Shown: positions 60,180 to 63,100 of the stretch, piece after piece
Position numbering within the stretch: position 1 is the stretch's first letter
Layout: every line of letters starts with the position of its first letter
Source: an archaeon
GTDB lineage: Archaea > Asgardarchaeota > Thorarchaeia > Thorarchaeales > Thorarchaeaceae
Assembly (NCBI GenBank): GCA_024276825.1
Contig: JAJRWI010000050.1
Location: 1-64,000, forward strand
Length of the DNA: 64,000 nucleotides
Reading direction: 5' to 3'
Made by a program: the position numbers and the translations under genes
The notes under the pieces: model-generated
The model's database searches: none
The model's input: the letters and a program-made list of their open reading frames with translations, nothing else
What the model was told of the DNA's origin: nothing

Positions 60180-63100
60180 GGTTTACAAATCGCTGTACGG
60201 CTGCTGGTGGATGACTTGGTTGGCTAGCCGATGAAGGGCGTGACAAGCAGCGATATGCTGGGGGTAGTCGCATGAAGACGTTGATCCCCAGATTCCCGAA
60301 TGGGACTTCCTCATGTGGGCTAATACCCCGCATGGCTCCAGGGTCAAAACTGGAGTGGGAACGCCTGGAACTGAAGCATCTTAGTACAGGCAGGAAAAGA
60401 AAACAATAGTGATTCCCTGAGTAACAGCGAGCGAAAGGGGAACAGGCCAAACCGAATCCCACGGCGAAGAGTCATGGGAGATGTGGTGTGACGACCGCGG
60501 ACAATTGCCGACGCGCCTAAGACGAAGTCGTCTGGAACGACGCGCCAAAGAGGGTGACAGCCCCGTAGTTGTAAAGTGCGGGCATGTCTGCGGAACGCGA
60601 GTAGCACGGGTTGGTCATCTCGTGCGAATGTCGCAGGCACAATCTGCGAAGCCTAAATACTAAGCCAAACCGATAGCAAACTATGTAGCGCGAGCGAAAG
60701 TTGAAAAGTACCGCGGGAGCGGAGTGAAAAGCACCTGAAACCAGCAGTCTATACAAAGGATGCTGATCAAAAGAGGAGAGGCTCGGGGAACGAACAGGGA
60801 GTGATCCCTTAGTAGGACTCGAGCGGATCGGGTCAGCATCATCCGTCTTGAAACACGGACCAGGGAGTTCATGGACGTGGCGAGGATAAGGCGAAAGCCG
60901 TAAACGGAGGGAAACCGACAAGCCCGCAGCCCGTAAGGGTGAGGGGCGGCGTGTGATAAGCGCGCGAAGTCACAGCCATGAGACGAGAAACCAGTCGATC
61001 TAGGCCTGGGCAGGGTGAAGCCGGGCGAAAGCTCGGTGGAGGCCCGAAAGGGTTCTGACGTGCAACTCGTTCCGTTGACCTGGGCCTAGGGGTAAAAGGC
61101 TTATCTAGACTGGTGATTGCTCGTTCTCCGCGAAGTTGGTCGTAGCCAAGCCCTGCTTGAGATATCATGTGGTGTAGAGCACTTTCGGTTGTGCCCGGGG
61201 GGCGTAAAGCCCTTCACCAACCTGAAAACTCCGAAGCTGCATGAATCGAAGACGGCAGGAGACGGGTGCCCGGGGTAAGCCCGGCAGGCCGAGATGGGGA
61301 GAACCGAGAGTATGGTTAAGGTCCCTAAGTGCCGGATAAGTGCGGTGAAGAAGGGCGTCGAGAGCCCAAGACAGTCTGGGGGTGAGCTTAGAAGCAGCTA
61401 TCCCCGAACGAAAGCGTAACAGCTCACAGACCGAGGCTCTCGGCCTTGAAAATGGACGGGGCTAAATCCGGCCACCGAGACCATACGGCACGCGGGTAAC
61501 ACTGCGTGATCCGGTAGCGGAGCGACCCGGTTGGACAGAAGTGGGGCCGTGAGGTCCCGTGGACCGTCCGGGTTTGATGATCCTGGTGGTAGTAACAGCG
61601 AAGCATGGTGAGAATCCATGTCACCGAAAGGGAAAGGGTTCTTCGGCGATGCGTCATCAGCCGAAGCTTAGTCGGTCCTAAGTGGCGTCGTAACTCGAGC
61701 GTCACGAAAGGGAATCAGGTTAATATTCCTGAACCTCGGAGGTACGTTCCGCGGCAACGCAAAGCCGGGCTTGTGACTCATCTGGACAGGCCGAGCACAG
61801 CTCTCGCTGTGTTTAACACTATAAGTCTGCTGAGAACCGTAATGGTGAGAGGCAGGTGAAGGGTGGAATAGCGGGTGGTCGGACACCCGTTCGGCTGATT
61901 CCTGGTGACCTTGAAAAACGAGCCCGGAAGGATCCTCCGAGTCCGTACCCAGATCTGACACAGGTTCCCTGGCTGAGAAGGCCAAGGTGTATCGGAGTCA
62001 ACCCTGCCTGAGGGAAATCGGCCAATTAGCGGCGTAACTTCGGGATATGCCGTGCCTGGGTTGGTGCAAGCCTTCCTAGGTCTTAGTGACTAAGGGGTCC
62101 CAACTGTTTAATACAAACATAGCTGACTGCGAGCGCGAAAGCGTTAGTACAGTCAGTGAATCCTGGTCTGTGCCTGTCTGTTAAAACTCGGGAACGGGTC
62201 GAAGCACAGGTTAACGCCGGGACTAACTATGAGTCTCTTAAGGTAGCCAAATGCCTTGTCGGTTAAATGCCGACGTGCATGAAGGGAGCAATGAGGTCCC
62301 CACTGTCCCCAGGAGGGCTCCGGTGAACCCACACCGTACCGAACAGTGTACGTAGCGCCAATGGGAAGAGAAGTCCCTGCGGAGGTTTACTACGCAGTCT
62401 GTCGTTGCCATTTCTGATGTCATACAGAGCGTAGTCAGGAGCGTTGAAACAGGTTCTCCGGGACCTGCGGATGCGACCATGTAACACTGACTATGGCATT
62501 GGGGATGGCTAACCTAAACCAAGCGAGTTTAGGGACACCGGCAGATAGGCAGTTGGGCTGGGGCGGCACAGGGCTGACAAGAGATCAGCCCTGACCAATG
62601 CTGAGCTCAGAGGCGACGGAAACGTCTCGTTGAGATCAAGGGCATAAGCTCGGCTGACAGGACCCCGAAAAGCAACGGGTCCTGGGGCGAAAGCCTGGCC
62701 TAGCGAACCTTCACTGGCCAATTGTGAGTGGTGGAGATGACAAAAAACTTACCCCAGGGGTAGGTCCTCTTCAGTGATACTCCCACCTCACCCTGTAGAT
62801 CACTCTCAGGGCTTGGTGGGTGCGTCACTGACAGGTTGGTGAACTGGTAAGTTTAGCACTTTGACAACTGGTTCATCTCCCTGAGACTCGTTCTGGAGAC
62901 CCCCACACAGAGTTGTCGCGTGCAAGAGTTCATATCGACCACGCGGCTTGCTTCCTCGATGTCGGCTCTTGGTATCCTCGGGTTGCATAAGGCCCGAAGG
63001 GTGCGGGTGCTCACCGATTAAAACCGAACGTGAGCTGGGTTTAGACCGTTGAAAGACAGGTTGGTTTCTATCTATTGGCGCTGTTGGATGGCTGAGGGCA

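What the first reader, a model, noticed from the sequence alone, without database searches (positions are those of the whole stretch)
62763..62906. 144-nt ORF-less intron splitting A2450/A2451, the heart of the peptidyl-transferase centre
Seen: the conserved ..CCCCAGGGRTAACAG.. loop is interrupted after GGGGTA and resumes at ACAGAG. The junctions form a BHB-like motif: central helix GGGG(62757-60)/CCCC(62901-04), bulges TA^G and AC^A each cut after the second base, intron-side helix GTC/GAC, and a weak exon-side helix (relaxed HBh' form). Cutting there regenerates the exact mature sequence. The intron folds into two long hairpins (TCAGTGAT..CCCACC/GGTGGG..GTCACTGA; GGTGAACTGGT/ACTGGTTCATC), has no homing endonuclease and is too short for group I/II. 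Ribosome function would depend on precise EndA/RtcB splicing. Sites 2449-2451 are known hot spots for self-splicing introns in eukaryotic and organellar LSU rRNA, while archaeal BHB rRNA introns are best known from Thermoproteota. The excised circle could be a stable RNA.
Basis: partly seen in the sequence, partly recalled or inferred. Interest (0 to 1): 0.85.

Follow-up and report, generated by a model that had tools for sequence, protein, structure and literature searches.

The report
Enzyme-spliced intron in ribosome's catalytic centre
The only 23S rRNA gene of this Thorarchaeal (Asgard) genome is split exactly between the catalytic-centre bases A2450 and A2451 by a 144-base protein-free intron of the known archaeal type cut out by the tRNA-splicing enzyme. 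It is real, and it carries a conserved loop that can pair with both neighbouring exons.

Summary
Window 62763-62906 is a clean 144-nt insertion between GGGGUA and ACAGAG of the single 23S rRNA gene. Numbering against E. coli places the split at A2450|A2451. An intron-less relative's gene is 3080 nt, which equals 3224 minus 144.

The junctions form a relaxed bulge-helix-bulge (HBh') motif:
- a 4-bp GGGG/CCCC helix;
- 3-nt bulges UA|G and AC|A;
- an intron-side helix;
- no adjacent exon-exon helix.

I extracted 27 same-site introns from Asgard genomes and metagenome contigs, in four sequence families. All keep this geometry, with compensatory changes. Some carry I-DmoI-like LAGLIDADG endonuclease genes.

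The host encodes a catalytic and a non-catalytic EndA subunit, with the crenarchaeal-type loop, plus RtcB.

Hairpin 2 is supported by covariation. Its apical part is complementary to exon 1 (9 nt) and exon 2 (7 nt). These boxes are kept in all 7 family members and covary with exon variants in a related family.

No RNA data could be obtained, so splicing is inferred.

This is a known kind of intron at a site and in a phylum that I found described in no searchable paper. The scan has already noted the same phenomenon on other DNA: 14 notes in at least 10 genomes.

The parts
60183..63406 (+). 23S rRNA gene, the only copy found in the genome, hosting the intron
   Evidence: Rfam RF02540, 2474 bits, full length. 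One match in the 98.3%-complete genome.
62745..62753 (+). Exon-1 target AAACUUACC (positions -18..-10), complementary to intron box 1
   Evidence: Exact 9-nt complementarity; duplex energy -9.2 kcal/mol.
62757..62760 (+). Exon strand (GGGG) of the central 4-bp BHB helix H
   Evidence: Pairs with CCCC at 62901-62904. H is 4/4 paired in 26 of 27 same-site introns. Exon GGGA pairs with intron UCCC in G336, a compensatory change.
62761..62763 (+). 5' bulge UA|G; predicted cut between 62762 and 62763
   Evidence: A 3-nt bulge in all 27 introns. Cutting here regenerates the sequence of intron-less relatives.
62763..62906 (+). The 144-nt ORF-less BHB intron (sequence family A)
   Evidence: Absent from intron-less relatives. 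Homologous introns of 186-285 nt occur in G376, G013, G349 and G006 and on contigs L305 and L308. No ORF longer than 22 aa inside it.
62764..62769 (+). 5' strand of the intron-side helix h' (GUC, then a C.A mismatch, then UC)
   Evidence: Pairs with 62895-62900. The first two h' pairs are canonical in all 27 introns, with four and two pair types respectively.
62771..62831 (+). Hairpin P1, the region that varies in length within the family
   Evidence: Minimum-free-energy folds. The basal stem is CAGUGA/UCACUG here and CCGGUA/UACUGG in G013, read by eye. It is expanded in G349 and G006.
62832..62883 (+). Hairpin P2 (CAGG...CCUG closing pairs plus an 11-bp stem)
   Evidence: Minimum-free-energy folds. 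The outer stem covaries: CAAGUG/GUUCAU here, CGAGGC/GCUCCG in G013, GGUGGA/CCGCUU in G006.
62846..62854 (+). Box 1, GGUAAGUUU, at the top of P2; complementary to exon 1
   Evidence: Present in 7 of 7 family-A introns. Family C has GGUAACUU matching its exon AAGUUACC, and AGUAACU where the exon is AGUUACU.
62863..62869 (+). Box 2, GACAACU, at the top of P2; complementary to exon 2
   Evidence: (G)ACAACU is present in 7 of 7 family-A introns at 35-36 nt from the 3' end, and in most family-C introns.
62881..62896 (+). Conserved 3' linker CUGAGACUCGUUCUGG; may form a small hairpin; role unknown
   Evidence: Nearly invariant in family A. A similar AGAUGCGUUCU string occurs in the 33-nt mini-intron of G006.
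62895..62900 (+). 3' strand of helix h' (GG, A, GAC)
   Evidence: See the h' 5' strand.
62901..62904 (+). Intron strand (CCCC) of the central helix H
62905..62907 (+). 3' bulge AC|A; predicted cut between 62906 and 62907. A62907 is A2451.
   Evidence: numbering.
62911..62917 (+). Exon-2 target AGUUGUC (positions +5..+11), the 5' strand of helix 89, complementary to box 2
   Evidence: duplex energy -7.3 kcal/mol. Rfam's consensus structure line marks this stretch as the start of a helix.

Best explanation
This is an archaeal bulge-helix-bulge intron of the relaxed HBh' type. It has no ORF and sits in the single 23S rRNA gene of a Thorarchaeal (Asgard) genome, between A2450 and A2451.

Proposed mechanism, with each step marked as shown or inferred:
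1. In the pre-rRNA, the exon bases GGGG pair with the intron's CCCC. The intron's two ends pair to form h'. This leaves two 3-nt bulges. (Shown by sequence and comparison.)
2. The host's heterotetrameric EndA, made of catalytic alpha and structural beta subunits, cuts after the second base of each bulge. (Inferred.)
3. RtcB joins the exons to restore GGGGUAACAGAG and probably circularises the intron. (Inferred.)
4. No exon-exon helix lies next to the motif. Instead, the apical part of hairpin P2 can pair with exon 1 (9 bp) and exon 2 (7 bp), 3 nt outside the motif on each side. I propose that it clamps both exons at the outer end of the central helix and keeps them from folding into helices 74 and 89 before splicing. 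(Inferred; about 50% likely.)
5. The intron cannot home by itself. It belongs to a lineage that shares this site with endonuclease-bearing introns.
For: - Exact insertion, and a single gene copy.
- BHB geometry with compensatory changes across 27 same-site introns in four sequence families.
- The 23S is otherwise intact and conserved. Exon 2 is 100% identical to G005 and G022, and the gene length minus the intron equals that of the intron-less G022 gene.
- Host enzymes. The EndA alpha candidate (192 aa) matches the A. pernix chain 3P1Z_B at E 3.5e-47 without gaps across the loop region. It keeps the residue that is changed from His to Ala in the near-identical chain 3AJV_B. A second paralog (205 aa) has no His in the corresponding stretch. 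RtcB gives 593 bits.
- Published context: Asgard archaea are reported to have the (alpha-beta)2 EndA with the L1 loop. [quoted passage not shown] The one (alpha-beta)2 enzyme that lacks the loop (M. kandleri) has a constrained range (PMC5829648).
- P2 covariation.
- Box 1 and box 2 are conserved in 7 of 7 family members. Two exon/box compensatory changes occur in the related family C.
- In shuffles of the window intron, both complementarities were reached together in 30 of 5000.
Against: - Cleavage, ligation and circle formation are therefore inferred.
- h' in this copy is only 3 bp before a C.A mismatch.
- The unconstrained fold prefers a local CCCC/GGGG exon hairpin; the BHB-constrained fold costs 6.7 kcal/mol more.
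- For the clamp idea: the top three P2 stem pairs would have to open to give the full 9-bp and 7-bp duplexes, and the pairings are pseudoknotted relative to H.
- The exon covariation rests on only two independent events.
- The 7-mer alone is not significant in a single sequence (1133 of 5000 shuffles).
Confidence: 0.9

Rival explanations
1. The insertion is removed, or left in, without ligation. The mature 23S would then be fragmented at the catalytic centre, as with bacterial intervening sequences or naturally split rRNAs.
For: No RNA data exclude it. The motif has no adjacent exon-exon helix that would hold the halves together.
Against: - The break would fall between A2450 and A2451, in the single-stranded core loop (Rfam structure line; numbering).
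- The junctions have the exact geometry of endonuclease substrates, whose products RtcB ligates (established knowledge).
- RtcB is present.
- Known intervening sequences sit in variable helices, not here (my own knowledge).
Confidence: 0.04
2. The gene is a dead or mis-assembled copy, and the working 23S gene was not assembled.
For: The genome is a draft of 82 contigs. rRNA genes are often missed in such assemblies: 235 of the 400 phylum genomes searched gave no match to this region.
Against: - The gene gives a full-length, high-scoring match to the model.
- The exons are 96-100% identical to relatives.
- The gene lies on a contig longer than 64 kb that also carries the 16S 5' part.
- Homologous introns occur in six other independent assemblies or contigs.
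- The whole of family f5 has an intron at this site (0 of 20 uninterrupted).
Confidence: 0.03
3. It is a self-splicing ribozyme, for example a reduced group I intron next to the classic L2449 site.
For: L2449 is a recurrent group I site. Group I introns do exist in archaeal rRNA genes (PMC6125680). The exon-complementary loop is reminiscent of an internal guide sequence.
Against: - At 144 nt there is no room for a P3-P9 core.
- No Rfam ribozyme match even at E up to 10.
- The box order (exon-1 box 5' of exon-2 box) is the reverse of a group I guide.
- The BHB is conserved with covariation.
Confidence: 0.01

Closest known systems
ORF-less ('remnant') and hairpin-type BHB introns of 16S/23S rRNA genes in Thermoproteales and Desulfurococcales (categories in Jay and Inskeep 2015, PMC4496867)
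   Same: - Junctions that depend on the splicing endonuclease, in highly conserved rRNA sites.
- No ORF, and a stable predicted fold.
- They share a locus with endonuclease-bearing introns and with hairpin introns under 50 nt.
- Neighbouring introns can be separated by a few exon bases there (8 nt). Relatives of this genome have a 10-nt micro-exon.
   Different: - Host phylum is Asgard (a Thorarchaeota family), not TACK.
- The site, 23S 2450/2451, was not named in any paper I could search.
- A conserved hairpin loop is complementary to both exons. I did not find this described for those introns.
Desulfurococcus mobilis 23S rRNA intron encoding I-DmoI
   Same: It is a BHB intron in 23S rRNA. 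Family-B introns at this same site in relatives encode a 220-242 aa double-motif LAGLIDADG protein, and the 242-aa one matches I-DmoI structures at E 5e-5.
   Different: The window's intron has no ORF and belongs to a different sequence family (A). The D. mobilis insertion site is, from my memory, in domain IV, not at the peptidyl-transferase loop.
Non-canonical tRNA introns of TACK and Asgard archaea cut by (alpha-beta)2 EndA with the L1 (crenarchaea-specific) loop (Kaneta et al. 2018, PMC5829648)
   Same: The same enzyme type and the same relaxed motif class. The host's alpha subunit aligns without gaps to the A. pernix enzyme across the loop.
   Different: The substrate is rRNA and the intron is ten times longer. 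The exon side is not a tRNA stem.
Group I introns at LSU site L2449 of nuclear rDNA
   Same: They sit one nucleotide away in the same loop and use intron-exon pairing to position the exons.
   Different: They are self-splicing ribozymes of several hundred nt. No ribozyme core is present here.

Membership tests
Archaeal bulge-helix-bulge (splicing-endonuclease) intron | A central 4-bp helix flanked by two 3-nt bulges on opposite strands | tested here: met
   GGGG 62757-60 pairs with CCCC 62901-04; the bulges are 62761-63 and 62905-07. The same layout is seen in 27 of 27 same-site introns, and H is fully paired in 26.
Archaeal bulge-helix-bulge (splicing-endonuclease) intron | Cutting after the second base of each bulge yields the mature sequence | tested here: met
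   The product GGGGUA+ACAGAG equals the uninterrupted sequence of relatives.
Archaeal bulge-helix-bulge (splicing-endonuclease) intron | Strict hBHBh' form: outer helices on both sides | tested here: not met
   h' is present (GUC/GAC plus UC/GG). No exon-exon helix is adjacent: A62756/C62908 and the next positions do not pair. The only exon-exon pairing is distal (ACUU/GAGU, GACA/UGUC) in the constrained fold. The motif is therefore the relaxed HBh' form, which still counts as a BHB intron for (alpha-beta)2 enzymes (PMC5829648).
Archaeal bulge-helix-bulge (splicing-endonuclease) intron | The host encodes an endonuclease able to cut relaxed motifs, plus an RtcB ligase | tested here: met
   Two PF01974 paralogs. 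The alpha candidate matches 3P1Z_B at E 3.5e-47 without gaps across the loop and keeps the His that is changed to Ala in 3AJV_B. The beta candidate has no His in the corresponding stretch. RtcB gives 593 bits.
Archaeal bulge-helix-bulge (splicing-endonuclease) intron | Excision and exon ligation seen in RNA | not testable with these tools
Mobile archaeal rRNA intron with a LAGLIDADG homing endonuclease (I-DmoI type) | An intron-encoded LAGLIDADG ORF | tested here: not met
   The longest ORF inside the intron is 22 aa. Such ORFs are present in family-B introns of relatives G003 and G009 (PF14528, E 3e-10 and 6e-11).
Group I intron | A conserved catalytic core detectable by covariance model | tested here: not met
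   No Rfam intron family matched at the gathering score or at E up to 10. Length is 144 nt.
C/D box sRNA carried in an intron | Box C/D motifs and a match to a known sRNA family | tested here: inconclusive
   Only chance-level Rfam hits (E 4-8). GUGAUAC and CUGA strings exist, but I did not test them further.

The most novel reading that the evidence does not exclude
The conserved P2 loop may be a cis-acting exon clamp. Box 1 and box 2 would pair with the two exons 3 nt outside the bulge-helix-bulge motif and stand in for the missing exon-exon helix. Enzyme-spliced rRNA introns at this site would then depend on an intron-borne guide element, as ribozyme introns do. Different Asgard intron families appear to have kept or reinvented such guides: family C uses the same boxes with compensatory changes, and family B uses CUGGGGUAA.
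Probability: 0.4. Interest if true: 0.65.

Novelty: new member of a known kind. Interest (0 to 1): 0.5.

Why it matters
- Dependence on splicing: if the inference holds, every ribosome of this organism depends on precise protein-catalysed splicing one bond away from the catalytic adenine.
- Extent in Asgard archaea: the same site is occupied in many Asgard genomes by several intron families. It appears fixed in one whole family: none of the 20 genomes that hold the region has an uninterrupted site.
- Wider range for rRNA BHB introns: this extends them well beyond the TACK lineages where they were described, into the closest archaeal relatives of eukaryotes.
- A natural test system: the site offers a series for studying how EndA recognises substrates that lack the exon-side helix. 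The series runs from endonuclease-bearing introns through ORF-less ones to 30-nt hairpin introns.
- The exon-complementary loop: if it is functional, it would be a guide-like element in a protein-spliced intron. That bears on the old idea that BHB introns descend from ribozyme introns.
- Practical consequence: such introns disturb rRNA gene calling and length-based quality checks in Asgard assemblies. Here Rfam's alignment was garbled across the site.

Tried and rejected
- Two 15-16-nt junction patterns scanned over genome contigs returned almost only chance hits in bacteria. The one useful row named a relative as Promethearchaeota.
- An exact intron pattern found nothing, because the window's own genome is left out of that collection.
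- The first metagenome pattern (the family-A 3' end) found nothing. The second (box 1 ... box 2 ... exon 2) found four contigs: two of family A and two of family C.
- An Rfam search of the intron at E up to 10 gave only chance-level hits, so no known RNA family applies and the C/D sRNA idea is not supported.
- A 12-nt complementarity between P2's 5' strand (62832-43) and 23S 61213-24 looked striking (about 0.02 expected by chance). It is absent from the three other family-A hosts whose full 23S I hold, so I treat it as chance.
- No endonuclease-bearing member of family A was found. The longest is 285 nt and has no ORF.
- Literature searches for Asgard or Thorarchaeota 23S introns found no description. 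Penev et al. 2020 say only that known intronic regions were removed. Tocchini-Valentini et al. 2011 is not held.
- The same-genus genomes G001 and G002 gave no match to this 23S region, so within-genus presence or absence could not be judged.

Full report
**1. What is there**

Rfam's archaeal LSU model matches window 60183-63406 on the + strand over its full length (2474 bits). It is the only LSU match in the genome, which is 98.3% complete in 82 contigs; the window is contig C42. The 5' part of the 16S gene lies at 1-849 on the other strand, so the rRNA genes are unlinked.

Around the finding the sequence reads ...AAAAACUUACCCCAGGGGUA | GGUCCUC...GGAGACCCCCAC | ACAGAGUUGUCGCG.... The covariance-model alignment is garbled across this stretch. 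Relatives settle the boundaries:
- The intron-less genomes of the same family that I read across the site show cttaccccaggggta directly followed by acagagttgtcg.
- The full 23S gene of relative G022 is 3080 nt, exactly 3224 minus 144, with no other length difference of 10 nt or more.
- The first base after the insertion aligns to position 2451 of an annotated E. coli 23S gene.

**2. Junction structure**

- exon GGGG (62757-60) pairs with intron CCCC (62901-04);
- the bulges are UA|G (62761-63) and AC|A (62905-07);
- the intron-side helix is GUC/GAC (62764-66/62898-900), continued by UC/GG after a C.A mismatch.

No exon-exon helix lies next to the motif. A fold constrained to the BHB finds only distal exon-exon pairs (ACUU/GAGU and GACA/UGUC) and costs 6.7 kcal/mol more than the unconstrained fold. 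This is the relaxed HBh' form.

**3. Comparison with other Asgard genomes**

A relative's contig carries the title 'Candidatus Thorarchaeota archaeon SMTZ1-45', and another is titled Promethearchaeota. The host therefore belongs to a Thorarchaeal family of the Asgard phylum.

Of the 400 phylum genomes searched, 165 hold this part of domain V and 104 hold an uninterrupted junction. In family f5, none of the 20 genomes that hold the region has an uninterrupted junction. The same is true of all 5 in family f12.

I extracted 27 introns at exactly this site from those genomes and from four metagenome contigs, and three more later. They fall into four sequence families:

| Family | Where found | Length | ORF |
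|---|---|---|---|
| A | the window; G376, G013, G349, G006; contigs L305, L308 | 144-285 nt | none |
| B (long) | five Thorarchaeal genomes | 739-793 nt | 220-242 aa LAGLIDADG ORFs read in G003 and G009 (PF14528); the 242-aa one matches I-DmoI at E 5e-5 |
| B (short) | family f12 | 145-148 nt | none; keeps the same ends as long B |
| C | all sampled genomes of family f5 | 288-423 nt | no long ORF in the one checked |
| D | one genome (G336) | 114 nt | none |

Across the 27 introns:
- the central helix has 4 of 4 pairs in 26;
- the bulges are always 3 nt;
- the first two h' pairs are always canonical, with four and two pair types respectively.

Where the exon reads GGGA instead of GGGG (G336), the intron reads UCCC, which is compensatory. 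This is strong comparative support for an endonuclease substrate, and it rules out a chance resemblance.

**4. Host enzymes**

The genome has two PF01974 paralogs.
- The 192-aa one matches the A. pernix chain 3P1Z_B at E 3.5e-47. The alignment has no gaps across the N-terminal loop region (own IRKPKS against VEKPRG). From memory, this region is the crenarchaea-specific loop, with a Lys involved in recognising non-standard substrates.
- It also keeps the His that is changed to Ala in the near-identical chain 3AJV_B.
- The 205-aa paralog has no His in the corresponding stretch.
- RtcB is present.

This fits the (alpha-beta)2 type with the L1 loop that Kaneta et al. report for Asgard archaea. [quoted passage not shown]

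**5. Inside the intron**

The minimum-free-energy fold gives two hairpins, P1 (62771-62831) and P2 (62832-62883) (z = -3.2). P1 is the part that varies in length within family A. The outer stem of P2 covaries among members.

Earlier scan notes on other genomes gave me the lead for the next point, and I tested it here. The top of P2 carries GGUAAGUUU (62846-54), the exact complement of exon-1 AAACUUACC (62745-53). It also carries GACAACU (62863-69), the complement of exon-2 AGUUGUC (62911-17).

Evidence bearing on these two boxes:
- In dinucleotide-preserving shuffles of the intron, a 9-mer was reached in 95 of 5000, a 7-mer in 1133, and both together in 30.
- Both boxes are present in 7 of 7 family-A introns, 35-36 nt from the 3' end, while most of the intron has diverged.
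- Family C has the same two boxes around a small extra hairpin. There the exon reads AAGUUACC and the box GGUAACUU.
- In three family-C genomes whose exon reads AGUUACU, the box reads AGUAACU.
- Family B has a different box, CUGGGGUAA, complementary to exon-1 UUACCCCAG.

The two targets lie 3 nt outside the motif on either side (CCA and CAG). Box 1 is 5' of box 2. Both exon duplexes would therefore abut the top of P2, at the outer end of the central helix.

I read this as an exon clamp that replaces the missing helix h. It would also keep the helix-74 and helix-89 strands, as Rfam's structure line marks them, from folding early.

This is inference. The pairings are pseudoknotted, they need the top three P2 pairs to open to reach full length, and the covariation rests on two events.

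**6. What it is not**

- The intron holds no ORF longer than 22 aa.
- No Rfam family matches it, even at E up to 10.
- It is too short for a group I core.
- A 12-nt complementarity to 23S 61213-24 is not shared by other hosts.

**7. What is known**

BHB introns in rRNA genes are long known in Thermoproteales and Desulfurococcales. The known forms include ORF-less remnants, hairpin introns under 50 nt, and closely spaced pairs (PMC4496867). L2449 is a classic group I site.

I found no paper describing BHB introns in Asgard 23S genes or at 2450/2451.

The scan itself has already recorded this phenomenon on other DNA: 14 notes in at least 10 genomes, several with follow-ups that reached the same reading.

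**8. Verdict**

The intron is real. It is almost certainly spliced by EndA and RtcB (confidence 0.9). It is a new member of a known kind, at an apparently unreported site and lineage. The exon-complementary loop is the one feature that could make it more than that.

Splicing, the circle and the clamp all remain untested, because no RNA data could be reached.

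Noticed in passing
window 11003-11116 (-): A 114-nt tRNA gene (Rfam 49 bits; anticodon loop CUCAAGA, so Leu-CAA-like) with an extra insert of about 30 nt after the anticodon loop. It is probably a BHB intron. 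ARAGORN does not report the gene.
   Followed up: partly
window 1-849 (-) and 60183-63406 (+): The 16S 5' part and the 23S gene lie about 59 kb apart on opposite strands, so the rRNA genes are unlinked. No 5S gene or tRNA lies next to the 23S gene within the window.
   Followed up: no
window 63245-63303: A 59-nt insertion relative to the Rfam LSU model, near the 3' end of the 23S gene. Another first-reader note calls it an ES39-like expansion. Unlike the intron, it is not flanked by a BHB that I noticed.
   Followed up: no
L003 (G006), L004 (G013), L272 (G349), L308: 10 nt upstream of the same site: A second BHB mini-intron of 32-33 nt sits at 2440/2441 (H = ACUU/GAGG; bulges AC|N and AN|C). 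It leaves a 10-nt micro-exon, CCCAGGGGUA, between two introns. Its hairpin shares an AGAUGCGUUCU-like string with the 3' linker of the main intron.
   Followed up: partly
L314 (G202), L315 (G230), L313 (G306): More BHB hairpin introns occur in the same 12-nt stretch. One of 31 nt lies at 2446/2447 (H = CCCG/CGGG; h' = CGCAUC/GAUGCG). One of 30 nt lies at 2450/2451 in G306. The peptidyl-transferase strand looks like a hot spot for such introns in Asgard archaea.
   Followed up: partly
L294 (G005), L296 (G004), L014 (G011), L026 (G036): Further variable insertions occur in domain V of relatives' 23S genes: 31 nt at the window-equivalent of 63025, 429 and 210 nt at 63036, 30 nt at 63105, 29 nt in G011 and 32 nt in G036. 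I did not examine them for BHB motifs or ORFs.
   Followed up: no
window 62873-62880 and 62733-62740; L271, L003, L004: UCAUCUCC in the P2 3' strand is complementary to exon-1 GGAGAUGA (-30..-23), in the window only. Three other family-A introns (G376, G006, G013) instead have a UUGUCAU-like box in P1 that is complementary to exon-1 GAUGACAA.
   Followed up: partly
window 62832-62843 and 61213-61224: A 12-nt exact complementarity links the intron (CAGGUUGGUGAA) to a distant part of the 23S gene. It is not found in the three other family-A hosts checked, so it is probably chance.
   Followed up: yes
L277 (G135, family f12): No exon-1 end was found within 650 nt upstream of exon 2, so this genome probably carries a long version of the family-B intron, perhaps with an endonuclease gene. 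I did not resolve it.
   Followed up: no
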